DNA of 64,000 nucleotides. It comes from Escherichia coli. GTDB taxonomy: Bacteria > Pseudomonadota > Gammaproteobacteria > Enterobacterales > Enterobacteriaceae. The notes under the pieces were generated by a model. The model saw nothing but the letters and a program-made list of their open reading frames with translations. It did no database searches and was not told the origin of the DNA. This document shows, in pieces, positions 39,760-49,133 of the stretch. A program made the position numbers and the translations under genes. The stretch is taken from NCBI RefSeq assembly GCF_003019035.1, contig NZ_CP027447.1, one strand, 5' to 3'. Numbering within the stretch: position 1 is the stretch's first letter; the number at the start of each line of letters is the position of its first letter.

Positions 39760-40123
39760 GGGGCTGATTCTGGATTCGACGGGATTTGCGAAACCCAAGG
39801 TGCATGCCGAGGGGCGGTTGGCCTCGTAAAAAGCCGCAAAAAATAGTCGCAAACGACGAAAACTACGCTTTAGCAGCTTAATAACCTGCTTAGAGCCCTC
39901 TCTCCCTAGCCTCCGCTCTTAGGACGGGGATCAAGAGAGGTCAAACCCAAAAGAGATCGCGTGGAAGCCCTGCCTGGGGTTGAAGCGTTAAAACTTAATC
40001 AGGCTAGTTTGTTAGTGGCGTGTCCGTCCGCAGCTGGCAAGCGAATGTAAAGACTGACTAAGCATGTAGTACCGAGGATGTAGGAATTTCGGACGCGGGT
40101 TCAACTCCCGCCAGCTCCACCAC
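39760..40123 (+). ncRNA. ssrA: tmRNA (transfer-messenger RNA, 10Sa RNA)
   Basis: GGGGCTGATTCTGGATTCGACGGG... through the tag reading frame gcaaacgacgaaaactacgctttagcagcttaa (ANDENYALAA) to the tRNA-like 3' end GGTTCAACTCCCGCCAGCTCCACCA. Confidence 0.96.
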
Positions 40124-40156
40124 TTTTTAGTAAAATGACGTCTACTAAAGTCTACT

Positions 40157-40191
40157 AAGGCCGCATACCACAAGGGTTTGCGGCCTTTTTC
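40157..40191 (+). terminator. Rho-independent terminator downstream of ssrA, inside the island left arm
   Basis: aaggccgcataccacaagggtttgcggcc hairpin followed by ttttt. Confidence 0.75.
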
Positions 40192-40289
40192 ATGTCCAGT
40201 GAAGTCTACTGAGAATTGCTAGAAACCACTCCTTATGGCACCCTCCTATTATCCCTCGTCGATGAGGGAGTAAAAACGAGGGAGCAAAA

Positions 40290-41522
40290 ATGCCAAAGGT
40301 AGCAACAAAACTCACTGACACAGAGATCAAAAAGGCCAAGCCCACAGAGAAAGAGTTCACGCTATGGGATGGAGATGGCTTGTTCCTGCGCATCAAACCA
40401 AGTGGCAAAAAAATCTGGCACCTCGGCTATACCGTTCCATTAACCAAGAAACGGGCCAAAATGAGTCTTGGGTTCTATCCCTACCTGACACTTGCTCAAG
40501 CAAGAGCGCTACGGGATGAATACCTCTCTTTGCTTGCACAGGGTATCGATCCCCAATCCCACAATGAGCAAAAAGCCCAAGCGCTTAAAGATGCCACTGA
40601 ACACACATTCCAGACTGTAGCGAAAAAATGGCTTGATGAAAAAATTAAAACATCAGGCATATCGCAAGATCATGCTAAGGATATCTGGCGTAGCCTTGAA
40701 CGGAACATCTTTCCTACTTTAGGGGATGTTCCCATTAAAGAGATCCGCCCTAAAATGTTAAAACAACACCTTGACCCCATAGAACAAAGGGGCGTACTCG
40801 AAACCTTGCGACGTATAATTTCCCGACTTAATGAAATTTTCCGCTATGCCGCGACAGAAGAACTCATTGAGTTCAACCCCGCTGACAACCTTATCCAACG
40901 TTTTAGTAAACCCAAAAAGCAAAATATGCCTGCGTTGCCGCCAGATGAACTACCCCGTTTCATGACAGCATTATCAAACGCATCTATACGCTTAGAAACA
41001 CGTCTACTAATTGAATGGCAACTTCTTACTTGGGTTCGTCCCGGTGAAGCTGTACGCGCTCGCTGGACTGACATAGACGAAGAAAGCAAGTATTGGAACA
41101 TTCCATCCGATTTCATGAAGATGAAACGTCCTCATAAGGTTCCATTGAGCAAAGAAGCTATACGTATTCTTGAATCCATGAAACCAATCAGCGGTCATCG
41201 TGAGTGGGTTTTCCCCAGCATAAAAAATCCTTTAACACATATGCACGAGCAAACTGCCAACGCCGCATTAATCCGAATGGGCTTAGGTGGAGAACTCGTA
41301 GCACATGGCATGCGTTCTATTGCAAGAACAGCAGCAGAAGAAGCAGGAAAATTTAGGACAGAAGTTCTTGAAGCGGCTCTCGCCCACTCAAAAAAAGATG
41401 AAATCATTGCTGCTTATAACCGTACAGAATATTTAGTCGAGCGTGTCGAGTTAATGCAATGGTGGAGTGATTATCTCCAAATACAAAAATATAAGTCTTT
41501 AACAACTCTGATCGCCAGCTAA
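40290..41522 (+). CDS. P4-type (IntA/SlpA-like) tyrosine site-specific integrase
   Basis: 410 aa; N-terminal arm-binding region (KLTDTEIKKAKP...LWDGDGLFLRIKPSGKKIW) and C-terminal catalytic region with R...HxxR...Y context (VAHGMRSIARTAA...LAHS...AYNRTEY); located directly after ssrA. Confidence 0.92.
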   Translation: MPKVATKLTDTEIKKAKPTEKEFTLWDGDGLFLRIKPSGKKIWHLGYTVPLTKKRAKMSLGFYPYLTLAQARALRDEYLSLLAQGIDPQSHNEQKAQALKDATEHTFQTVAKKWLDEKIKTSGISQDHAKDIWRSLERNIFPTLGDVPIKEIRPKMLKQHLDPIEQRGVLETLRRIISRLNEIFRYAATEELIEFNPADNLIQRFSKPKKQNMPALPPDELPRFMTALSNASIRLETRLLIEWQLLTWVRPGEAVRARWTDIDEESKYWNIPSDFMKMKRPHKVPLSKEAIRILESMKPISGHREWVFPSIKNPLTHMHEQTANAALIRMGLGGELVAHGMRSIARTAAEEAGKFRTEVLEAALAHSKKDEIIAAYNRTEYLVERVELMQWWSDYLQIQKYKSLTTLIAS

Positions 41523-41679
41523 TCCTACAATCAACCCAATATCAGAAGCTGGCTTTAGTAGGGATACTTCCATTTTTCTGATATTGTATTACCATGTAGC
41601 TGAAAGTCAGATACCAAGTAGAAAAACACATTTTTATGTATGCTTTATCGAATAAAACATTAACCAAATAGGGGGACTA

Positions 41680-42399
41680 ATGGAAGATTTAGTTTGTAGT
41701 TGGTCACCAAAGCTGATCGTTGATCTTATAAAAAGTATCGCTTGGCCAGTAGTCGTCCTTCTCATCGGCTTCAGTTTTCGAACTCGAATTTTTGAAGTGG
41801 CACGTTCATTTTTTTCTAAAAACACAGTTTCAGAAATATCAGCTACAGTATCAGGTGTATCGGCAAAATTTGTGACAGCAAAGCAAACAACTGAAGTATT
41901 AGAAAGTGCTAGTACCAATGCAGCGAATTTACCAAAGAGTATGAGTATTGAGGCTATAAGAGCGCGACATGAACAGCATAAAACAGAATTCAGCGAAGAG
42001 TTATATCAATCAATAATTAAACATGCTTCCTCTTTAGATATTAATAATGATGAAAAAGTCAAAATTCTGGCACGTGAATTGTCTATTTATCAAGCTATAA
42101 TACGATATATTGACATTAATAAGATATTATTTCGCTCACAATACAATTTATTTTGTTCTATAAATAGTAATGGTGGTCAAATAAATAAAGAAGACGCCAA
42201 TCTTTTTTTTGAGGCGACCAAGAACAACAATAAAGAAGCATTCTCCGATTGGGATTGGATTAAATATATTGCCTATCCTGTTAGTAATAGCCTTATCTAT
42301 GAAGATAATAATTTTTATAAACTTACAGAGTTGGGAAGATCGTATATAGCTTTTATGTCAAAAAATCCACAACTAATCGACGAACTTGCAAAATTATAG
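41680..42399 (+). CDS. Hypothetical membrane-anchored protein (N-terminal TM helix), island cargo
   Basis: 239-aa ORF with aggggga RBS; hydrophobic segment IAWPVVVLLIGFSF; AT-rich codon usage; no recognisable family. Confidence 0.6.
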   Translation: MEDLVCSWSPKLIVDLIKSIAWPVVVLLIGFSFRTRIFEVARSFFSKNTVSEISATVSGVSAKFVTAKQTTEVLESASTNAANLPKSMSIEAIRARHEQHKTEFSEELYQSIIKHASSLDINNDEKVKILARELSIYQAIIRYIDINKILFRSQYNLFCSINSNGGQINKEDANLFFEATKNNNKEAFSDWDWIKYIAYPVSNSLIYEDNNFYKLTELGRSYIAFMSKNPQLIDELAKL

Positions 42400-42629
42400 T
42401 AGGGAATAATATTAAACCCTACTCAATGACTGTTTCAGATCTTGGTTCTGTATCCCATAAATGATCAGGTAAAGTCTAAGCGAATAGCGTTTAACAGGTG
42501 GGATGACTCACTACGTGAACCACCCACCTATAAAAAGGGTTTTTCTTCTGGTGAGTTGTCAATAAAAATGAAGGTTTCCACCTTTCATGCGGACCCTCCT
42601 TAATTTTTTTTGACAAGTTGAGATCGAGA

Positions 42630-43082
42630 CTATTTATCATTACGTTTTTTCATAAAATATTTATAACGTTCATCAGCTTCTTTTTGAAACTTTTCAGCGT
42701 CAAACGTATCAGTTTCTATTTTTATTTTTTGTTTTACCGCTTCATCTAATCTTTTATTTTCTTTCAATCTTTCTTTTTCTACTAATATAAGTTTATAGTA
42801 TTTTAGCTTAATATTAAAACTTGCTTTTGCTAACTCCTTAGCGTCAAAACCTATATTGTATTTTTTAAGAAGTTTCAATATATAATCTATAGTCATTTTT
42901 TTCACTTCCTTTTTTATTTTTTCTTCATGCGCATCTTTTTTTATACTCCCACTTTTTAACCATTGCTTAAATTTATAGCCATTATAATGCTGCCATTGAT
43001 ATATTTCAGCGGCATACATCACCGACAACATACAAACAATAAAAAATACAACCATAAAAACCACACATATTAAATAATACAT
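42630..43082 (-). CDS. Hypothetical membrane-anchored Lys/Glu-rich protein, gene 6
   Basis: 150 aa; N-terminal TM LICVVFMVVFFIVCMLSVMYAA then a charged helical region. Confidence 0.55.
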   Translation of the reverse strand: MYYLICVVFMVVFFIVCMLSVMYAAEIYQWQHYNGYKFKQWLKSGSIKKDAHEEKIKKEVKKMTIDYILKLLKKYNIGFDAKELAKASFNIKLKYYKLILVEKERLKENKRLDEAVKQKIKIETDTFDAEKFQKEADERYKYFMKKRNDK

Positions 43083-43083
43083 A

Positions 43084-43320
43084 TCAGCCCCCGCCTTTCC
43101 TTCTATATTGTTCTTTTATTAATGCTACGTGATATTTTTTTGCGTTGCTTATACTTACATCAGCAGAGTTTCTAGCAGAAGCAAAAGCACTTGAAACAAC
43201 AGAAGCAATAATGGCAACTAAGAAAGCAGCAACAAAAAAACCCATCACTGGCCCCATAAAACTAGCCCCACCGTCATCTATTGCTGGTTTTGCTTTTGCT
43301 AATAATGATAATAGGCTCAT
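43084..43320 (-). CDS. Hypothetical small membrane protein (single TM), gene 5
   Basis: 78 aa; hydrophobic core GPVMGFFVAAFLVAIIASVVSSAF followed by a basic tail. Confidence 0.55.
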   Translation of the reverse strand: MSLLSLLAKAKPAIDDGGASFMGPVMGFFVAAFLVAIIASVVSSAFASARNSADVSISNAKKYHVALIKEQYRRKGGG

Positions 43321-43730
43321 ATATTTCTCTCTTCTTCAATGTTTTTAATCGCTGTTTCTATTCTTTGTTTTACAAAGTCTCTAAACACATAACCTATTAT
43401 TCGCGCGTCTTCACATATATCTAACTCATCTTTTTTATGAAAATATAAATCAGCGCTTAAAAGCTCTTCGCTTTGAATATTTAACATTTTACTAGCAAGT
43501 GATATTCTAATAATATTTCGCACTTCTAAATCCAAGCTTGCTCTATCATGCTTATTCAAAAGCTGGAGCGGATGAAAATCTTTTTTTCTTTTCATTTCTT
43601 GCATATCATTATCAAAATCTATCATTAAAAAATGTAAGCAAGTAAAAGACGTATCATAGAAGTTTAAGCGGTTCATCATATCCGCCGTTCCCTCTTTTCG
43701 AGGGTTCGGGTTAGGTCTTAATTTATTCAT
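43317..43730 (-). CDS. Hypothetical protein, gene 4
   Basis: 137 aa; overlaps gene 3 by 8 bp and gene 5 by 4 bp. Confidence 0.55.
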   Translation of the reverse strand: MNKLRPNPNPRKEGTADMMNRLNFYDTSFTCLHFLMIDFDNDMQEMKRKKDFHPLQLLNKHDRASLDLEVRNIIRISLASKMLNIQSEELLSADLYFHKKDELDICEDARIIGYVFRDFVKQRIETAIKNIEEERNI

Positions 43731-44064
43731 CTGCTTTACTCCTTTTCTTGTTGTTTTTTAGCTTCCATTCATTCAATCTTTTATCGCCTTCAACTTTTAA
43801 GAACTCACGCTGATCGTGTATTCTTTTCAGTATTAGATTATTAGTTAACGCTCCTACTAACAAAGAAATATCATTCGCAAAATCTAATGTCTCGATGTTA
43901 TTTTCTCTAACTATTCTTATTAGTTCAGCGCCGGCTTTTATTTTACGTGTCGTATCTTTTTTCCTTTCTTCTGCCTTCATTTCTTGCTCCATTCTATTCA
44001 ATAAGTTTGCTCTTTGCTCAATTTCTTTTTTTAATTTATTATATTTTTCTATATTAAACGCCAT
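43723..44064 (-). CDS. Hypothetical basic coiled-coil protein, gene 3
   Basis: 113 aa, Lys/Glu-rich heptad-like N-terminus (EKYNKLKKEIEQRANLLNRMEQEMKAEERKK). Confidence 0.55.
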   Translation of the reverse strand: MAFNIEKYNKLKKEIEQRANLLNRMEQEMKAEERKKDTTRKIKAGAELIRIVRENNIETLDFANDISLLVGALTNNLILKRIHDQREFLKVEGDKRLNEWKLKNNKKRSKADE

Positions 44065-44383
44065 TTTCTGAACCTCTCTTTTCTTTTATCGTAATAAAAA
44101 AGGCAATCAACCCACTGATCAATAAAATTGGTAAAGTTAAAATAAACCCTACCAATAACACTAATGAAAATCCGAGCACGCCGGACATCTCATATAGATT
44201 TCCGAACAATGTGCTTTCGTTTTTATACTCAACCATATTCTGTAAAACAGACCTTTTTTCAATATCTTTTTCTTTTAAAGAATCTTCTCTATATTCATAA
44301 TCTTCACAACTCAAAGAAATTTCCACAGTGTTATCATTCAAATACTCATTATCATAATAGTCGTAATCATTATTCCCAATCAT
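44054..44383 (-). CDS. Hypothetical membrane protein (acidic Tyr/Asp-rich N-terminus, C-terminal TM segment), gene 2
   Basis: 109 aa; hydrophobic stretch GVLGFSLVLLVGFILTLPILLISGLIAFFITI; translationally coupled to neighbours. Confidence 0.55.
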   Translation of the reverse strand: MIGNNDYDYYDNEYLNDNTVEISLSCEDYEYREDSLKEKDIEKRSVLQNMVEYKNESTLFGNLYEMSGVLGFSLVLLVGFILTLPILLISGLIAFFITIKEKRGSENGV

Positions 44384-44565
44384 TCTAGATCTCCTTCTAA
44401 CGTGTCATAAACAACAGTAAAATCATTCTCATGAGAAAGAAGATTGTAAGTTATAAATAAGCTTGTCCTATAAACAATATCTGTATTTTCATCCTGTAGT
44501 TTTTGAATAATCAACTTAACAAGATCAGACGCTGCCACTTCAATTTTTTTATCAATATCATTCAT
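44380..44565 (-). CDS. Hypothetical small acidic protein, gene 1 of the six-gene island operon
   Basis: 61 aa; agagg-type RBS; stop overlaps the next gene start by 4 bp. Confidence 0.5.
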   Translation of the reverse strand: MNDIDKKIEVAASDLVKLIIQKLQDENTDIVYRTSLFITYNLLSHENDFTVVYDTLEGDLE

Positions 44566-44737
44566 GTTCCACCTCTTTTATTTTTTATGATTTCTGTTAT
44601 ATATATTAAGTAATATAATTATTTATTTAAGTAAAGCGCGATATATATTTTTTTGTTTTTAGAACGCATTTTTCAGATAAAAGGCTCACGTGCGGCGGCT
44701 ATTTTAGTTTTGCTAAAAACTACAATAGCGCACTTAT

Positions 44738-44761
44738 ACATTCTTCGAATGTGTGCGCCCC
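44738..44761 (+). promoter_or_regulatory. Candidate origin of transfer (oriT) with MobQ-type nick motif
   Basis: Inverted repeat acattc-ttc-gaatgt immediately followed by GTGCGCCCC, resembling the recalled RSF1010 oriT nick region (IR + TAAGTGCG/CCCT); lies about 115 bp upstream of the relaxase gene. Confidence 0.55.
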
Positions 44762-44874
44762 ATAAATGGGGGTTTACTAACGCAGAAAAATAAAAAGTAA
44801 TATTCGCTTTATGCTCAATATTACTTAATCGCTTTTCAAAAAAGCAAATATATTTTTATTATTTTAAAAAGTAT

Positions 44875-46203
44875 GTGTTTCAATATCAGGAGATAAAAAC
44901 AATGGCAATATTTCATATGAGCGCTCAAACAATAACACGCAGCAAGGGGTATAGTAGCGTAGCTGCGGCAGCTTATCGCCACGGCGAAAAGTTAACGGAC
45001 GAACACACAGGAGAGATCCACGACTACAGCAAAAAGAAAGGTGTTTCAGACAGTGTTATATTAATACCTGAAAGCGCAGACCGTAATTTTTTAAAGCCTG
45101 CGTATTTATGGAACATGATAGAAAAAAGCGAAAAAAGAAAAGATGCGCAGTTAGCTCGCGAGTTTAATATTGCGCTTCCTGTCGAAATGACAGATGAACA
45201 AAAAAAGGCGTTAGCAATAGATTTTTGCCAAGAGCATTTTGTAAAAAATGGAATGATTGCTGATATAGCTTTTCACAAGCTCGATAGCGACAACCCACAT
45301 TTTCATGTAATGCTAACCACCCGCAGCCTTACGCCGGACGGTTCAGAGTTCGGACATAAAGTCAGGGAATGGAACAACAAAGAGCAGCTCGAAGGCTGGC
45401 GCAAGAGCTGGGCTGACACAGCGAACGAGCACATGCAAAAGGCTGGCATCGATGCGCATATAGATCACAGATCACTGAAAGAACAAAAAGCAGAGCTTGA
45501 CGCTATCCTCCCCCCTCTCAGAACGATTGAGCAAGAGGCGCAGGCTATCAGCTTAGACAGACCGCCGACTATCCATAGAGGCCATAGCCGCAATCCAGAG
45601 CGACAAGCACGCTTTGACGTGCTCCAAGAAGTGAAAGTATCACAAGAGGAAAAAGCACTTAACCACATTGAACAGAAACAACTTAAGCCCTCGCCGCTGG
45701 CTCCAGCTTCCTCCCCTGCCGCATCTTTGCAAGATGCTACACAAGGAGGCAATGAAAACAACCCGCAAAATAGACTCGGCGAAGTTGGCGAATATCTTCA
45801 ATCTAAACTCAATAAAGAAGATAAAGCAGATCTTAATACTGATAATGAAATCAAAGTTCACACTACTAAAAATAATAGGGAAAGCAGTTCAGCAGCAGCT
45901 ATAGGTTCAACATCAAATATTAATTTAACCGATGAGAAAACAGATAAGAATCTACACTTAACAGAAGCACAAAAAGAAGAGTTAGAGGATTTAGAAAATA
46001 AAGAAGCAGCAGCGAAGAAAAAAGCTTATCTGATGAGCGGAGCTGCCGTTCCTGAACTTTCTCAAGATTACAAAACACTGTCAAAAAGTGAGTTTAAAAA
46101 TAAGCTTCATACAGCTAAACAATCAATATCATTAACTGAAAAGAGATTTAATGAAGAATGTGAAGCATATGATAACAGAAGAAAACGACCAATACCGCGC
46201 TAA
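44875..46203 (+). CDS. MobA/MobL-family (MobQ-type) conjugative relaxase, relaxase domain only
   Basis: N-terminus MAIFHMSAQTITRSKGYSSVAAAAYRHGEKL aligns with RSF1010 MobA MAIYHLTAKTGSRSGG...ADYIQREGKY (catalytic Tyr region); HFHVMLTTR matches the His motif HCHLMISER; C-terminal half is low-complexity Lys/Glu/Ser-rich with no primase domain. Confidence 0.85.
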   Translation: MFQYQEIKTMAIFHMSAQTITRSKGYSSVAAAAYRHGEKLTDEHTGEIHDYSKKKGVSDSVILIPESADRNFLKPAYLWNMIEKSEKRKDAQLAREFNIALPVEMTDEQKKALAIDFCQEHFVKNGMIADIAFHKLDSDNPHFHVMLTTRSLTPDGSEFGHKVREWNNKEQLEGWRKSWADTANEHMQKAGIDAHIDHRSLKEQKAELDAILPPLRTIEQEAQAISLDRPPTIHRGHSRNPERQARFDVLQEVKVSQEEKALNHIEQKQLKPSPLAPASSPAASLQDATQGGNENNPQNRLGEVGEYLQSKLNKEDKADLNTDNEIKVHTTKNNRESSSAAAIGSTSNINLTDEKTDKNLHLTEAQKEELEDLENKEAAAKKKAYLMSGAAVPELSQDYKTLSKSEFKNKLHTAKQSISLTEKRFNEECEAYDNRRKRPIPR

Positions 46204-46563
46204 GTATTTTGCTCATTTTTTATCCCCAATGAATGACTTAGCGTTATATTTACTTTAACTAATTGATACTATTGATTTATTTTCACCTCACGTCGTATCG
46301 TTTATATCGATCAAAATCGACAAAGTGATAGTTAACACCTATCACAACCAATTCATCGATCGATTAAAACAATTAATACACCGATCGATAAACGAGATTT
46401 AATCGTTAAAAACTATCAATATTAAATAATTGATCTGTTATAACGATCATTTTGCTTGAGAGTAGCCCTCCTCATGGTATGCTCGGAGCGTGGAAGACCG
46501 GGCTACTCACCTTGATATCTTCTTGATTAAGCAAAACTATCGCTCTATGAGGAATGAAATTTT

Positions 46564-47058
46564 ATGAAAACCGAAAACATTATTTTTCTTGTTTGGGCAG
46601 TGATTTTTATCCTGATTCTCTGCCAACTTTTTTATTTTGGCCCTAAAAAAAGAAGATACCTCAATACTTATATAGAGGTATTAGATGGTGATGTCCTCTC
46701 ATATGAATGTCAAAATACCGGCGTAGTTATTGATACTAAAAAAAACACAGTACGTATTTTCAATACATATAAGGACAGCACTTTCAAATACGACAACATC
46801 AGGGAAATAAATTATACGCTATCCGAAGCCGGAAAAATTTATAGCACAAGTAATAATCTAAACTCTATGATAAAGTCCGCTGGAGCTAACAGTAATGAAC
46901 AAATGTTAGCTAATCAGCGTTCCGGTATTTTTATACTGACAGATGATATAAAAAATCCTTCATGGAAAATCAATCTACCAATGAAAAACAAAACATCATC
47001 TACCAATCAGGAGATCTGCGATCGATGGCTTCTCATTTTTAAAAAATACGTTTTATAA
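46564..47058 (+). CDS. Hypothetical membrane-anchored protein
   Basis: 164 aa; gagga RBS; N-terminal TM IIFLVWAVIFILILCQLFYF. Confidence 0.55.
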   Translation: MKTENIIFLVWAVIFILILCQLFYFGPKKRRYLNTYIEVLDGDVLSYECQNTGVVIDTKKNTVRIFNTYKDSTFKYDNIREINYTLSEAGKIYSTSNNLNSMIKSAGANSNEQMLANQRSGIFILTDDIKNPSWKINLPMKNKTSSTNQEICDRWLLIFKKYVL

Positions 47059-47090
47059 CTTTGTTTTTTATTTTTATCTTTGGAGTTGAC

Positions 47091-47468
47091 ATGAAAAAAT
47101 TGATTGCGGCAGCATTTATTATTCTCCCTTTAGCAAGTTGTACTGTTTATGGAAACAAATCCATTAAAGACGAAACGCAGCAAAATATAGCCTCTAAAAT
47201 TATAAAAGGTAAAACTACTCAAAAAGATATCCTTCAACTTTATGGAGAACCTCAGACTAAAGAAACTAACGATGGTAAAGAAATGTGGGGATATTCCGTT
47301 ATGTCCGGTGAATCTCAGATTTCAAATTACATACCGGGATTAGCGTTATTGAAGAATAGCAGCACAGCGCACATGAAAGAACTTGAGATCTTGTTTAAAG
47401 GTGATGTAGTTGAACGCTATACCTTTAGACAAACGGCAAGCAAAGCTTCTCGCGGGTTGTTAGATTAA
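47091..47468 (+). CDS. Hypothetical lipoprotein (possible SmpA/OmlA-like fold)
   Basis: Start at MKKLIAAAFIILPLASC (lipobox LASC) preceded by ggag RBS; about 125 aa; weak pattern similarity to BamE-type lipoproteins (Q..L..YG.P.....W.Y). Confidence 0.55.
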   Translation: MKKLIAAAFIILPLASCTVYGNKSIKDETQQNIASKIIKGKTTQKDILQLYGEPQTKETNDGKEMWGYSVMSGESQISNYIPGLALLKNSSTAHMKELEILFKGDVVERYTFRQTASKASRGLLD

Positions 47469-47730
47469 TTTAAATTAAATACCATTTTATCTTTAAAAAG
47501 AAGTTGGAATAGTCCGACTTCTTTTCTATTTTATCAATAACATGCATTATTTATATTAGTGCCTTATGAAATGGCACCTTACTTTTTATATTTCCCTATC
47601 TGGGGGTTTAACCTTTGTTTTTTATTAAAAAAAATTTTGTACTAGTAGTACTAATTAATTAATTTAAAAATTTTTGGTTTTAAGGTTTTGGGGTTTGTGT
47701 TTTAGCGGGGCGGCTTTCAGCCGTAGTAGT

Positions 47731-47760
47731 TTTCCTCCGAAGGAGGAAATAGTTTTTCTT
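47731..47760. terminator. Perfect palindrome followed by T-run (terminator-like) in the island non-coding region
   Basis: tttcctccgaaggaggaaa followed by tagtttttcttt. Confidence 0.5.
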
Positions 47761-48087
47761 TAAGCATTCCCCCCCTACCCCCCACGCCAAAAAGGCTAAA
47801 AAAGAGAGATAGGAGATGCTCATTGCGTCTTGAAAATATTCAGAACGTTTCCATTCTGATACTTCCCCCACGACCCACGCAAACACAAATCATGAAACTT
47901 TCAAACAACTCTCGTTTTACTAAAGAGTCTATGCTACTGTTTGTAAATTTTTTAGATTGTGCGATTCAGGTTGGCAGCTACGCATATCCCGGTTAACCGC
48001 TGCCGCAATATTCTAAGTTTCACCAAACACTCGATGTCCTTCGTACTTAGACCTTGATACAACAAGGGTAATATTATATTGCTTTTG

Positions 48088-48223
48088 TAGATTAAATGTT
48101 TCTGGAAATGGTATTGACATTTTATCTATGTCAAAGTCGGCGAAATTTGTTTAATCATGCAGATTAGAGGCTTCTGGAAGTGGTATTTAATATTAGTTAA
48201 AAGTCGACGAAGCATTTCTAATC
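48088..48223. repeat. Tandem imperfect direct repeat of about 66-70 bp (two copies)
   Basis: Copy 1 gtagattaaatgtttctggaaatggtattgacatt...gtcaaagtcggcgaaatttgtttaatc and copy 2 gcagattagaggcttctggaagtggtatttaatatt...aaaagtcgacgaagcatttctaatc align by eye with several mismatches and a short gap. Confidence 0.6.
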
Positions 48224-48469
48224 TTTTGTATCTTTATATTATATAAATCTATATATAACACCAGTCAATAGATGAAATCAAAAATATTTTAAAAACATGA
48301 CTAGATGAAAAACAAAAAAAGACCAGATTAAACCCCAGTCTCTTTTTTACTTAATATCAGTTATGTTTTTCATATATAGTTCTAAAACGCTCTGTACGCG
48401 ATTTTGAGACGTTTTACACTGGAAGCGGCGTAATCATATAAATAATAAAATAGAATACTGTAATGATTT

Positions 48470-48673
48470 TTATGCCGCTTGATTACGCGAATAAAAAATC
48501 TTATCATCAATCCATTCGTCAACTTCACTTTCAACAAATGCGATAGTTCTTTCACCAGTCTTGATCGGAGAAGGGAAATCACCCCGGCTAATCAGCCGAT
48601 AGATCCACGCTTTACAAAAACCAGTCTTGTTTAACACTTCGGGTATGCGGATAAGTCTTTTTCTTTCGTTCAT
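48470..48673 (-). CDS. AlpA-family (HTH_17, excisionase-like) transcriptional regulator
   Basis: MNERKRLIRIPEVLNKTGFCKAWIYRLISRGDFPSPIKTGERTIAFVESEVDEWI matches the AlpA/prophage CP4-57 regulator pattern; start chosen at the Met preceded by a gagga RBS (ORF track starts 4 codons upstream). Confidence 0.8.
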   Translation of the reverse strand: MNERKRLIRIPEVLNKTGFCKAWIYRLISRGDFPSPIKTGERTIAFVESEVDEWIDDKIFYSRNQAA

Positions 48674-49133
48674 ATATTTCCTCATAGTTGTTTTGATGAG
48701 GCTATTATTCGAATATCGCTTATGACGATCAACAACTTTTTTAGCAAAAAGTGCTTTTTTAGTTGACTATTTTAAATTAACAGTCATTTAATCACCTTTG
48801 GAAGTTGAACTCATGAGTTCAACTCCTCACCGCTAGTCATGACATTCAAAATGTGCTTATTTTTTAGCCACAATACTTTTTTTATCCCTTTATTGCACCT
48901 CAATGTAAAATACAAATAATTAATATATTTAATAATCAAATGATTAAAGAGTCGATTACAGGGACGCCAGCCAATCATGATTGGACGGTGTAAGGACAAC
49001 ACTAATAAAAACAGGAAGTTAGCAGTCTCAGCAGGACACCGACCAGACGGTGAGGAGACATAAAAGGATACGCAAAGGAGCCGCGGCCCCTGGTGATATG
49101 AAAGCCCACAGATGTGGGCTTTTTCGTTGATGG

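What the first reader, a model, noticed from the sequence alone, without database searches (positions are those of the whole stretch)
41680..42399. Orphan 239-aa membrane-anchored protein immediately downstream of the integrase
This is a single gene with its own RBS, convergent with the six-gene operon and separated from it by a hairpin-rich spacer (42400-42629). It has one N-terminal TM helix followed by a soluble, mostly helical Asn/Ile/Lys-rich domain. Position next to the integrase and standalone organisation are typical of island cargo such as abortive-infection or exclusion proteins. No family was recognised.
Basis: inference. Interest (0 to 1): 0.55.

Follow-up and report, generated by a model that had tools for sequence, protein, structure and literature searches.

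The report
Membrane-anchored winged-helix cargo gene
The 239-aa ORF is a real gene from an unstudied family of membrane-anchored winged-helix proteins that moves alone between prophages, integron cassettes and islands, often in known anti-phage hotspots, so it is a plausible but untested phage-exclusion gene.

Summary
Window 41680-42399 (+) is a 239-aa ORF with its own ribosome-binding site, directly after a P4-type integrase in a low-GC island at ssrA, and convergent with a six-gene operon.

It is a real gene (Ka/Ks 0.09-0.21). Close homologues form 73 clusters, nearly all 237-240 aa, in Gammaproteobacteria. About 219 clusters in a wider superfamily share the same layout.

Predicted layout:
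- one N-terminal transmembrane helix, probably N-out/C-in, with invariant Trp22-Pro23;
- a strongly conserved membrane-proximal motif that models poorly;
- an acidic, probably cytoplasmic helical domain ending in an HTH_45/Sso10a-like winged helix.

No curated family (Pfam, NCBIfam, PADLOC, PHROGs, PDB) claims it.

No neighbouring gene is conserved, and integrase adjacency is occasional. The gene travels alone. It occurs in the P2 gpA-gpQ hotspot beside SieB, the K139-type int-cI hotspot beside PDC-S21, phage-plasmids, an ICE, and Vibrio and Halospina integron cassettes. It also sits near Lamassu and TIR-TM genes.

Enterobacterial copies keep a relic of the cassette core site, which suggests integron ancestry.

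Best reading (about 0.45): a single-gene phage-exclusion or abortive-infection protein acting at the inner membrane, analogous to AbiP and PdpSau but with a different fold. This is untested.

The parts
40290..41522 (+). P4-type tyrosine integrase of the ssrA island. It provides context and is not a functional partner of the target.
   Evidence: NCBIfam NF007246 at 462.6 bits, above the 434 cut-off. The tmRNA gene lies at 39760-40122. Integrase adjacency is not conserved among homologues.
41523..41679 (+). 5' leader that travels with the gene in Enterobacterales. It contains a small palindrome, a hairpin with compensatory changes, a degenerate integron core-site relic (ATTAACC at 41659-41665, against GTTAGGC in relatives) and the ribosome-binding site AGGGGGA at 41670-41676.
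   Evidence: blastn homology to the Serratia, Buttiauxella and Dickeya copies starts 80-122 nt upstream of the ATG. GTTAGGC lies 13-15 nt upstream of the ATG in 8 other loci. No consensus sigma-70 promoter was found on the + strand.
41680..42399 (+). The 239-aa ORF (WP_080243313): a membrane-anchored winged-helix protein.
   Evidence: Ka/Ks 0.09-0.21.
41710..41778 (+). Codons 11-33: single transmembrane helix with invariant Trp22-Pro23. Predicted topology is N-out/C-in.
   Evidence: Kyte-Doolittle 19-residue maximum of 2.14. Mean flank charge is -1.4 on the N side and +2.3 on the C side over 48 homologues. AlphaFold2 models a helix at residues 10-47. W22 and P23 are invariant in 48 sequences down to 22% identity.
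41821..41886 (+). Codons 48-69: membrane-proximal motif NTVSExSAxxSGxSAKFxAxxQ. It is the most conserved internal segment and is modelled with low confidence.
   Evidence: Mean majority-residue frequency is 0.79 and entropy 0.77 bits in A1. pLDDT is 31-47. The equivalent K-x-G-x-x-G-h-E motif is present in the distant branch.
41932..42396 (+). Codons 85-239: confident helical domain ending in a winged helix (about residues 164-228). A long preceding helix (123-163) carries invariant Ser153-Gln154. The conserved C-terminal tail is NPQLIDELAKL.
42398..42423 (+). Hairpin overlapping the stop codon (GTAGGG...CCCTAC). It is a possible weak transcript end and has no U-tract.
   Evidence: Inverted repeat I3, RNA fold, no terminator call.
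42491..46102 (.). Plasmid-derived MobQ mobilisation module: the six-gene operon on the minus strand plus the mobQ relaxase. It marks the right-hand limit of the target's own DNA unit.
   Evidence: About 84% nucleotide identity to the 5.4-kb E. coli MobQ plasmid p24AR0376C. MobQ NF041496 scores 254 bits.

Best explanation
The gene encodes a self-contained phage-exclusion determinant (superinfection exclusion or abortive infection) carried as cargo by mobile elements.

Predicted from sequence and model, not measured:
- The protein is a bitopic inner-membrane protein.
- A 10-residue acidic N-terminus faces the periplasm.
- One transmembrane helix carries invariant Trp-Pro.
- A conserved membrane-proximal motif follows the helix.
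- A cytoplasmic helical domain ends in an HTH_45-like winged helix.

Inferred mechanism:
- The winged-helix domain is held at the inner face of the membrane.
- There it recognises something that appears during infection, either incoming nucleic acid or a phage protein.
- The highly constrained transmembrane and membrane-proximal module then either blocks genome entry or early development, or oligomerises and compromises the membrane so that the infected cell dies.
- This would resemble the single-protein, N-terminally anchored abortive-infection proteins AbiP (Lactococcus) and PdpSau (S. aureus prophages).

In this E. coli island the gene is probably expressed from a weak promoter of its own, or by read-through from the integrase gene.
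For: 1. The gene is real and under selection. Ka/Ks is 0.09-0.21. There are 73 clusters, nearly all 237-240 aa, and 219 representative clusters in the superfamily.

2. Architecture.
- Transmembrane helix and charge bias.
- Winged-helix fold.
- HTH_45 link through relatives.
- The transmembrane helix, the membrane-proximal motif and the long helix are more conserved than the winged helix itself. W22-P23 and S153-Q154 are the only invariant positions across 48 sequences. This argues that the membrane part is functional and not a passive anchor.

3. Autonomous single-gene unit. No shared neighbour was found in 14 loci.

4. Location of homologues.
- In a Serratia P2-like prophage the gene lies between gpA and the portal gene, next to a SieB-family gene. 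Rousset et al. 2022 define this interval as the P2 antiviral hotspot (PMC9122126).
- In a K139-like V. fluvialis prophage it lies between int and cI, next to PDC-S21. The same paper names this interval as a hotspot.
- It lies at the integrase end of lambdoid prophages.
- It is carried on Klebsiella phage-plasmids of about 110 kb.
- It lies in an ICE.
- It is an integron cassette in V. cholerae and in Halospina, flanked by attC sites. The Halospina IntI scores 412 bits to TIGR02249.
- It lies near Lamassu LmuB/LmuC (LmuB E = 1.6e-170) and near TIR-TM (E = 6.5e-78).

5. Precedents from the literature.
- Integron cassettes are documented reservoirs of anti-phage genes, including a small transmembrane protein active against T4 (bioRxiv 10.64898/2026.03.17.712381).
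- Membrane-anchored single proteins with a cytoplasmic nucleic-acid-binding domain cause abortive infection. Examples are AbiP, where both domains are required, and PdpSau, which depolarises the membrane on infection (PMC13064643 and PMC10127798).

6. Distribution is sporadic, as expected for accessory conflict genes. The gene is in 2 of 5426 complete E. coli genomes and in 5 of 100,044 species-representative genomes.
Against: - No functional test exists, and no PADLOC model matches beyond a 14-bit winged-helix hit.
- Only about 5 of 19 contexts have a recognised defence gene nearby. Most neighbours are unknown.
- Mobile-element hotspots and cassettes also carry non-defence cargo.
- The winged-helix domain is acidic (pI 4.7-6) and has few conserved basic residues. 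This is unlike AbiP and PdpSau and weakens a nucleic-acid-binding mechanism.
- No isolated phage genome in INPHARED carries the gene.
- Topology rests on the positive-inside rule alone.
- There is no enzymatic effector domain, so the killing or blocking step is conjecture.
Confidence: 0.45

Rival explanations
1. It is a membrane-tethered winged-helix transcription factor or DNA tether. The cytoplasmic winged helix binds a specific DNA site on the carrying element or the host chromosome. It then regulates genes or holds DNA at the membrane, possibly autoregulating through the small palindrome in its conserved leader.
For: - HTH_45/Sso10a-type hits appear in relatives.
- Some AFDB relatives are labelled ArnR1-like wHTH.
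- The conserved leader has a TGACT-GAA-AGTCA palindrome downstream of a TATAAT-like box in several enterobacterial copies.
Against: - The domain is acidic and has no conserved basic recognition residues.
- There is no conserved target locus or neighbouring gene to regulate.
- The leader palindrome is absent outside Enterobacterales.
- The gene is found as a promoterless-type cassette in integron arrays.
- The strongest constraint lies in the membrane and membrane-proximal parts, not in the winged helix.
Confidence: 0.2
2. It is a conflict function of mobile elements other than phage defence. Examples are entry or establishment exclusion against plasmids, ICEs or incoming DNA, or a counter-defence factor.
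For: - The gene is carried by an integrative mobilisable element (this window), an ICE, phage-plasmids and prophages.
- Its inner-membrane location resembles entry-exclusion proteins. This point rests on general knowledge and was not tested here.
- Hotspots also hold anti-defence genes.
Against: - Many carriers have no conjugation genes at all: integron arrays, small chromosomal islets and P2-like phages.
- Known anti-defence proteins are usually small, soluble and expressed early by phages.
- Nothing links the gene to any particular type IV secretion system.
Confidence: 0.15
3. It is a host-physiology cargo gene, for example in membrane stress response, envelope adaptation or signalling. Its presence in hotspots would then be a by-product of being a small, easily mobilised cassette.
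For: - Most integron cassettes and islet genes have unknown, non-defence roles.
- Several loci are small chromosomal islets among housekeeping genes: trpA-ydjM in Aeromonas, pyrF-cvfB in Pseudoalteromonas, and pepT-side in Buttiauxella.
Against: - Distribution is extremely sporadic.
- The gene recurs in two independently defined antiviral hotspots and beside recognised defence genes.
Confidence: 0.15
4. It is a spurious ORF or a decaying pseudogene in AT-rich island DNA.
For: - GC is low (32.8%) and Asn/Ile/Lys content is inflated in this copy.
- No consensus promoter or terminator was found.
Against: - Full-length conservation at an almost fixed length in 73 clusters.
- Ka/Ks is 0.09-0.21.
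- The AlphaFold2 domain is confident.
- The reading frame is intact and the start Met is conserved.
Confidence: 0.02

Closest known systems
AbiP (Lactococcus) and PdpSau (S. aureus prophages): single-protein membrane-anchored abortive-infection systems
   Same: - They are of similar size (PdpSau is 278 aa).
- They have one N-terminal transmembrane helix followed by a cytoplasmic domain of a nucleic-acid-binding type.
- They are encoded singly on mobile elements.
- The transmembrane helix is required for function in AbiP, and PdpSau depolarises the membrane on infection (PMC13064643 and PMC10127798).
   Different: - Their cytoplasmic domain is OB-like and positively charged. Here it is an acidic winged helix.
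- No sequence similarity was detected. PADLOC shows no Abi hit, and tblastn against plasmids finds only Klebsiella homologues.
- They are Gram-positive systems.
- No phenotype is known for this family.
HTH_45 (PF14947) / Sso10a-type and MarR/PadR winged-helix proteins
   Same: - Winged helix preceded and followed by helices.
- Relatives of the target match HTH_45: 8 of 24 at E <= 1e-3.
- The target gives a sub-threshold Sso10a hit.
   Different: - Those proteins are soluble, usually basic, DNA-binding dimers.
- The target has an N-terminal transmembrane helix and a conserved membrane-proximal motif, and it is acidic.
- The target itself does not reach any Pfam or NCBIfam threshold.
Prophage superinfection-exclusion genes in lysogeny or hotspot positions (SieB; P2 old/tin; K139 int-cI cargo)
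   Same: - The genomic positions match: the P2 gpA-gpQ interval, the K139 int-cI interval, and the integrase end of lambdoid prophages.
- It is a small standalone gene.
- It is predicted to sit in the membrane. That SieB does too rests on general knowledge, not on a test here.
   Different: There is no homology to SieB (no Pfam SieB hit) or to old/tin. Exclusion activity is not shown.
Integron gene cassettes encoding anti-phage functions (Darracq 2025, Kieffer 2025 and Getz 2025, as cited in bioRxiv 10.64898/2026.03.17.712381)
   Same: - Vibrio and Halospina homologues are bona fide single-ORF cassettes with attC sites.
- Enterobacterial copies retain the GTTAGGC core relic.
   Different: - The E. 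coli copy is no longer a cassette. Its core site is degenerate, there is no attC downstream, and it is not in an integron.
- This family is not among the named cassette systems that could be checked.
ToxR/CadC/TcpP-type membrane-bound transcription activators
   Same: A winged helix tethered to the inner membrane by a single transmembrane helix.
   Different: - The order is opposite. Those proteins have an N-terminal OmpR-type wHTH, then a transmembrane helix, then a periplasmic sensor.
- Here the order is transmembrane helix first, only 10 periplasmic residues, no sensor domain and no Trans_reg_C match.

Membership tests
Winged-helix fold (HTH_45 / Sso10a-like) | Canonical H1-beta1-H2-H3-beta2-beta3 topology | tested here: met
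Winged-helix fold (HTH_45 / Sso10a-like) | Significant match to the Pfam HTH_45 or NCBIfam Sso10a profile | tested here: inconclusive
   - The query has no Pfam hit.
- Its Sso10a hit is E = 0.014 at 15 bits, against a cut-off of 60.
- Relatives match HTH_45: 14 of 48 (best E = 2e-5) and 18 of 24 (8 at E <= 1e-3).
- These relatives are homologous to the query family at hhalign probability 99.9%.
Winged-helix fold (HTH_45 / Sso10a-like) | DNA binding | not testable with these tools
   Only indirect evidence is available: domain pI is 4.7-6.0 and few basic residues are conserved.
MarR/PadR transcription regulators | Profile match to MarR or PadR, in a soluble dimeric protein | tested here: not met
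   No Pfam or NCBIfam MarR/PadR hit. An N-terminal transmembrane helix is present.
AbiP/PdpSau-type membrane-anchored Abi proteins | Single N-terminal transmembrane anchor, with the rest of the protein cytoplasmic | tested here: met
   Kyte-Doolittle maximum is 2.14 at residues 12-30. The positive-inside bias is -1.4 (N side) against +2.3 (C side) over 48 sequences. This is a prediction only.
AbiP/PdpSau-type membrane-anchored Abi proteins | Positively charged OB-like nucleic-acid-binding C-terminal domain | tested here: not met
   The C-terminal domain is an acidic winged helix.
AbiP/PdpSau-type membrane-anchored Abi proteins | Phage-resistance (abortive-infection) phenotype | not testable with these tools
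   Requires phage challenge experiments.
Known or candidate defence systems in PADLOC-DB v2.0 | HMM match to a system component | tested here: not met
   The only hit is WH_III-A at E = 0.011 and 14 bits, over residues 201-226.
SieB superinfection-exclusion family | Match to Pfam PF14163 | tested here: not met
   No hit. In the Serratia prophage a SieB gene is a neighbour, not a homologue.
Integron gene cassette | ORF bounded by a 5' G|TTRRRY core and a 3' attC (RYYYAAC...GTTRRRY), in an array next to intI | tested here: not met
   - For the window copy the feature is not met. The 5' core is degenerate (ATTAACC), there is no attC downstream and no intI.
- It is met for homologues in V. cholerae, which are flanked by VCR repeats.
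- It is met for the Halospina homologue, which has a 72-nt attC and an IntI scoring 412 bits to TIGR02249.
   - No neighbouring gene family recurs across 14 loci.
- Integrase adjacency is seen only in the window, in the V. fluvialis prophage (a different integrase, divergent orientation) and in lambdoid prophages L031/L032.

The most novel reading that the evidence does not exclude
The ORF is the E. coli representative of a superfamily with a fixed architecture that spans several phyla. The architecture is a transmembrane helix with invariant Trp-Pro, a conserved membrane-proximal motif, a helix carrying invariant Ser-Gln, and an HTH_45-like winged helix. Under this reading the superfamily is a new single-protein anti-phage system. 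It would spread mainly as an integron cassette and would work by a mechanism not yet described: a membrane-tethered, acidic winged helix senses a phage component at the inner membrane and signals through its own transmembrane module.
Probability: 0.3. Interest if true: 0.65.

Novelty: new variant of a known kind. Interest (0 to 1): 0.45.

Why it matters
If the family protects against phages, it would add a compact single-gene system of about 720 bp with a sensor fold not yet seen in membrane-anchored abortive-infection or exclusion proteins.

It would also give a traceable example of one defence gene passing from integron cassettes into P2-like and K139-like prophage hotspots, phage-plasmids, ICEs and an ssrA mobilisable island. 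The retained GTTAGGC core relic is a usable marker for such ex-cassette genes.

If the gene has another function, the family is still a widespread uncharacterised membrane-tethered winged-helix architecture. It has two strictly invariant dipeptides (WP and SQ) that offer direct mutational handles.

Tried and rejected
- Curated family searches on the query (PADLOC, NCBIfam, PHROGs, Pfam) gave only sub-threshold hits.
- A profile search against PDB sequences found nothing meaningful. The best hit was E = 0.011 to ribosomal protein uL6 over the linker motif, probably chance.
- Foldseek against PDB gave only weak winged-helix hits, with E >= 0.15.
- AFDB50 gave almost only uncharacterised proteins.
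- tblastn against isolated phage genomes gave no match.
- The search for a conserved partner gene found none. This rejects a two-gene system and rejects integrase linkage.
- The search for domain fusions found none with Pfam domains. One 383-aa variant carries a DUF1176-like N-terminus and was not pursued.
- The genome-wide locus scan with the broad alignments A2 and A4 failed, because no stretch was conserved enough.
- An attR repeat for the island was not found.
- The literature gave no mention of accession WP_080243313.
- Family motifs were absent from the supplements of Rousset 2022 and of the 2026 cassette-screen preprint.
- Rfam gave nothing in the leader or the spacer.
- An entry-exclusion reading tied to a specific conjugation system was rejected, because most carriers lack one.
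- A homodimer model was not attempted.
Full report
**1. The observation**

The window is an E. coli chromosome segment, 100% identical over the queried stretch to strain SCU-301. Its gene order is recN-bamE-ratA-smpB-ssrA. The tmRNA gene lies at 39760-40122.

After ssrA comes a low-GC island of about 8.7 kb, at 30-35% GC against 47.5% for the window. The island opens with a P4-type integrase at 40290-41522 (NF007246, 462 bits).

The reported ORF lies 157 nt downstream on the same strand, at 41680-42399. It has an ATG start and encodes 239 aa. AGGGGGA precedes the ATG by 3 nt. RefSeq annotates the same CDS as hypothetical protein WP_080243313.

The ORF is convergent with six small minus-strand ORFs at 42630-44565. 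The spacer between them has four inverted repeats and folds better than its shuffles (z = -2.73). No canonical terminator was found.

From 42491 onward, through the six-gene operon and the mobQ relaxase to 46102, the DNA is about 84% identical to 5.4-kb MobQ plasmids. Part of the "hairpin-rich spacer" therefore belongs to a plasmid-derived mobilisation module. The island is a mosaic integrative mobilisable element. Only 2 of 5426 complete E. coli genomes carry the target.

**2. The gene is real**

A search of 5.8 billion proteins found 73 clusters, nearly all 237-240 aa, at 43-79% identity. They come from Enterobacterales, Vibrio, Aeromonas, Alteromonas, Pseudoalteromonas, Oceanimonas and Thalassolituus. 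All are named hypothetical and none has a Pfam domain.

The start Met is invariant. Pairwise Ka/Ks is 0.09-0.21. The 94-aa antisense ORF at 41634-41918 recurs only as a shadow of this gene.

An exhaustive phmmer search of 1.84 billion cluster representatives found 219 clusters at E <= 1e-3, most of 200-250 aa. A distant branch (A4, 21-41% identity among its members) aligns to the close family over almost its full length, including the transmembrane helix (hhalign probability 99.9%, E = 1.7e-32). AFDB50 shows the same architecture in Alpha- and Gammaproteobacteria, Bacteroidota, Desulfobacterota and candidate phyla. Almost all of these entries are uncharacterised.

**3. Anatomy**

- **Model.** AlphaFold2 on a 37-sequence alignment gave a mean pLDDT of 76.6.
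- **Helix 10-47.** It contains the hydrophobic stretch at residues 12-30 (Kyte-Doolittle 19-residue score 2.14).
- **Segment 47-81.** It is modelled with low confidence.
- **Domain 85-239.** It is confident (pLDDT 88-96) and 75% helical. It ends in a winged helix: strand 167-169, helices 170-183 and 193-202, and a wing at 206-215.
- **Topology.** Flank charges over 48 homologues average -1.4 on the N side and +2.3 on the C side. The positive-inside rule therefore predicts N-out/C-in, with the winged-helix domain in the cytoplasm. This is a prediction only.
- **Profile matches.** The query misses every curated threshold: PADLOC WH_III-A at E = 0.011, NCBIfam Sso10a at E = 0.014, and no Pfam hit. 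Relatives do match Pfam HTH_45, at 14 of 48 and 18 of 24, with 8 at E <= 1e-3. The C-terminal domain is therefore an HTH_45/Sso10a-like winged helix by transitive homology.
- **Charge.** The domain is acidic. Its pI is 6.0 in the query and the family median is 5.4. The winged helix alone has pI 4.7.
- **Conservation.** It is not centred on the winged helix. The most constrained segments are the motif at 48-69 (NTVSExSAxxSGxSAKFxAxxQ), the C-terminal tail, the transmembrane helix and the long helix 123-163. Across 48 sequences down to 22% identity, the only invariant residues are Trp22-Pro23 in the transmembrane helix and Ser153-Gln154 in the long helix.
- **Inference.** The membrane module looks functional and not like a passive anchor.

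**4. Context of homologues**

I compared 14 distinct loci by all-against-all BLAST of their ORFs. Nothing recurs except the gene itself. The gene is thus an autonomous one-gene unit. With further loci there are about 19 distinct contexts.

*Carriers*
- A Serratia P2-like prophage, between gpA and the portal gene, next to a SieB-family gene.
- A K139-like V. fluvialis prophage, between int and the cI repressor, immediately followed by PDC-S21/DUF4917 (PADLOC E = 3.6e-122).
- Lambdoid prophages in IMG/VR, in the order xis-int-target at the prophage end.
- Klebsiella phage-plasmids of about 110 kb, seen in 13 PLSDB records and in related IMG/VR contigs.
- An ICE in Dickeya.
- V. cholerae superintegron arrays, at different positions in different strains.
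- A Halospina integron. Its IntI scores 412 bits to TIGR02249.
- Small islets, some flanked by insertion sequences.

*Recognised defence genes nearby*
- TIR-TM (E = 6.5e-78) in Enterobacter.
- Lamassu LmuC and LmuB (LmuB E = 1.6e-170), plus a type IV restriction-enzyme fragment, in Oceanimonas.
- PDC-S21 in V. fluvialis.
- A DUF4238 cassette two cassettes away in V. cholerae. Rousset et al. validated a DUF4238 protein as anti-T7.

*Published hotspots.* Rousset et al. 2022 (PMC9122126) define the P2 gpA-gpQ interval as an antiviral hotspot. They also name the int-cI interval of K139-like Vibrionaceae phages as another. The family occupies both.

*Limits of this evidence*
- Ten other neighbours gave no PADLOC hit.
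- No isolated phage in INPHARED carries the gene.
- Only 5 of 100,044 species-representative genomes carry it.
- Directly adjacent integrases occur in about 3 contexts (L035 has one further off), and only the window's is P4-type.

**5. An unexpected finding: cassette ancestry**

In the marine homologues the ORF is bounded like an integron cassette. GTTAGGC, which fits the attC R' core GTTRRRY, lies 13-15 nt upstream of the ATG. GCCTAAC, which fits the R'' inverse core RYYYAAC, lies 6-25 nt after the stop.

Supporting details:
- V. cholerae copies are flanked by VCR repeats of about 125-133 nt.
- The Halospina copy has a full 72-nt attC upstream.
- Copies in the Serratia P2 prophage and the Dickeya ICE still have GTTAGGC at the same distance.
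- Buttiauxella, Citrobacter and Klebsiella have degenerate versions.
- The E. coli window has ATTAACC at 41659-41665.
- In the V. fluvialis prophage a collapsed attC (GCCTAACAGGGCGTTATAAC) separates the target from PDC-S21. This suggests that both hotspot genes are former cassettes.
- A distant family member (22% identity) is also in a Vibrio cassette array.

Enterobacterial copies additionally share a leader in which blastn detects homology for 80-122 nt upstream of the ATG, and which the six-sequence alignment extends across the whole int-target gap in the window. The leader contains a TATAAT-like box in relatives, which is degenerate in E. coli. It also contains a small palindrome and a hairpin that keeps pairing through different sequences.

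In E. coli no consensus promoter was found. Read-through from the integrase gene is possible; this is an inference.

**6. Mechanism**

*Predicted from sequence and model, not measured*
- A bitopic protein with a tiny periplasmic stub.
- A constrained transmembrane and membrane-proximal module.
- A cytoplasmic acidic winged helix.
- Autonomous mobility.
- Repeated residence in antiviral hotspots.

*Inferred.* The gene is a single-gene phage-exclusion or abortive-infection determinant. The winged helix would recognise a phage-derived molecule at the inner membrane. The membrane module would execute the response, either by blocking entry or early development, or by oligomerising and damaging the membrane.

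*Precedents*
- AbiP has an N-terminal transmembrane helix and a nucleic-acid-binding domain, and both are required (PMC13064643).
- PdpSau has an N-terminal helix and a cytoplasmic OB-like domain, and it depolarises the membrane on Kayvirus infection (PMC10127798).
- Integron cassettes are established reservoirs of anti-phage genes. These include a small transmembrane protein active against T4 (bioRxiv 10.64898/2026.03.17.712381).

*Weak points*
- The domain is acidic and has few conserved basic residues. A protein ligand is therefore at least as likely as nucleic acid.
- There is no effector enzyme.
- Only about a quarter of contexts show recognised defence neighbours.
- Nothing has been tested experimentally.

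I put the defence reading at about 0.45. The rivals are:
- a membrane-tethered regulator or DNA tether (0.2);
- another mobile-element conflict role, such as plasmid or DNA-entry exclusion or counter-defence (0.15);
- non-conflict physiological cargo (0.15);
- a spurious ORF (0.02 or less).

**7. Comparison with what is known, and novelty**

The protein works most like AbiP and PdpSau but fails their defining domain feature. They have a basic OB-like domain, whereas this protein has an acidic winged helix. It is therefore an analogue and not a member.

At fold level it belongs with HTH_45/Sso10a-like winged helices. It is not a MarR, PadR or ToxR-type regulator. It matches no model in PADLOC 2.0 or NCBIfam 20.0.

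Its homologues are integron cassettes, but the E. coli copy no longer is one.

I classify it as a new variant of a known kind: a mobile-element-borne, single-protein, membrane-anchored exclusion candidate.

Interest is moderate (0.45). The family is coherent, widespread and unstudied, and its cassette-to-hotspot history is clear. A hypothetical membrane protein in a defence hotspot is not in itself surprising, and function remains unproven.

Noticed in passing
window 40130-48900, especially 42491-46102: The ssrA island is a mosaic integrative mobilisable element. A P4-type integrase is joined to a module about 84% identical to 5.4-kb E. coli MobQ plasmids: four to six small genes of unknown function plus the mobQ relaxase. 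An AlpA-like HTH gene lies at 48470-48685. No Rep gene and no clear attR repeat were found. The target's sequence and spacer (the 41523-42629 query) occur in only 2 of 5426 complete E. coli genomes.
   Followed up: partly
L003, L018, L019, L022, L023, L025, L012, L010; window 41659-41665: The gene family carries integron-cassette boundaries: GTTAGGC 13-15 nt upstream of the ATG, and GCCTAAC/attC just after the stop. A relic of the 5' core persists in prophage, ICE and island copies, and is degenerate (ATTAACC) in E. coli. This could serve as a general marker of ex-cassette genes.
   Followed up: yes
L025 8715-8760: In the K139-like V. fluvialis prophage a collapsed attC (GCCTAACAGGGCGTTATAAC) lies between the target and the PDC-S21/DUF4917 gene. 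This suggests that prophage hotspot cargo was recruited from integron cassettes.
   Followed up: partly
window 41523-41679; L012, L010, L014, L017 and L016 upstream regions: The leader upstream of the gene is conserved across Enterobacterales (blastn homology 80-122 nt upstream of the ATG; the alignment spans about 157 nt). It has a TATAAT-like box, a TGACT-GAA-AGTCA palindrome and a hairpin that keeps pairing with different sequences (CCACAT/ACGTGG, CACATT/AATGTG, CACTAT/ATAGTG). It may be an operator or 5'UTR element, or a decayed attC stem.
   Followed up: partly
protein residues 48-69 (window 41821-41886): The most conserved internal segment of the protein is modelled with very low confidence (pLDDT 31-47). 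It may fold only on oligomerisation, on the membrane, or on binding a partner. A weak profile hit to a beta-strand region of ribosomal protein uL6 is probably chance.
   Followed up: partly
window 40085-40191: A weak partial Rfam match to the IsrM sRNA (31.6 bits against a gathering score of 376, E = 7e-6) lies at the ssrA 3' end and island junction. It is probably shared att or island-junction sequence and not an sRNA gene.
   Followed up: no
P0112 (383 aa; AFDB A0A1W1C0C5): One metagenomic relative replaces the transmembrane N-terminus with a region of about 195 aa labelled DUF1176. It is the only architectural variant seen.
   Followed up: no
window 46564-47468: Two small island genes lie downstream of mobQ. 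One is 164 aa with an N-terminal transmembrane helix and is annotated as a DUF4755 fragment in RefSeq. The other is a 135-aa lipoprotein-like ORF with a weak OsmE-like hit. Neither has a PADLOC match.
   Followed up: partly
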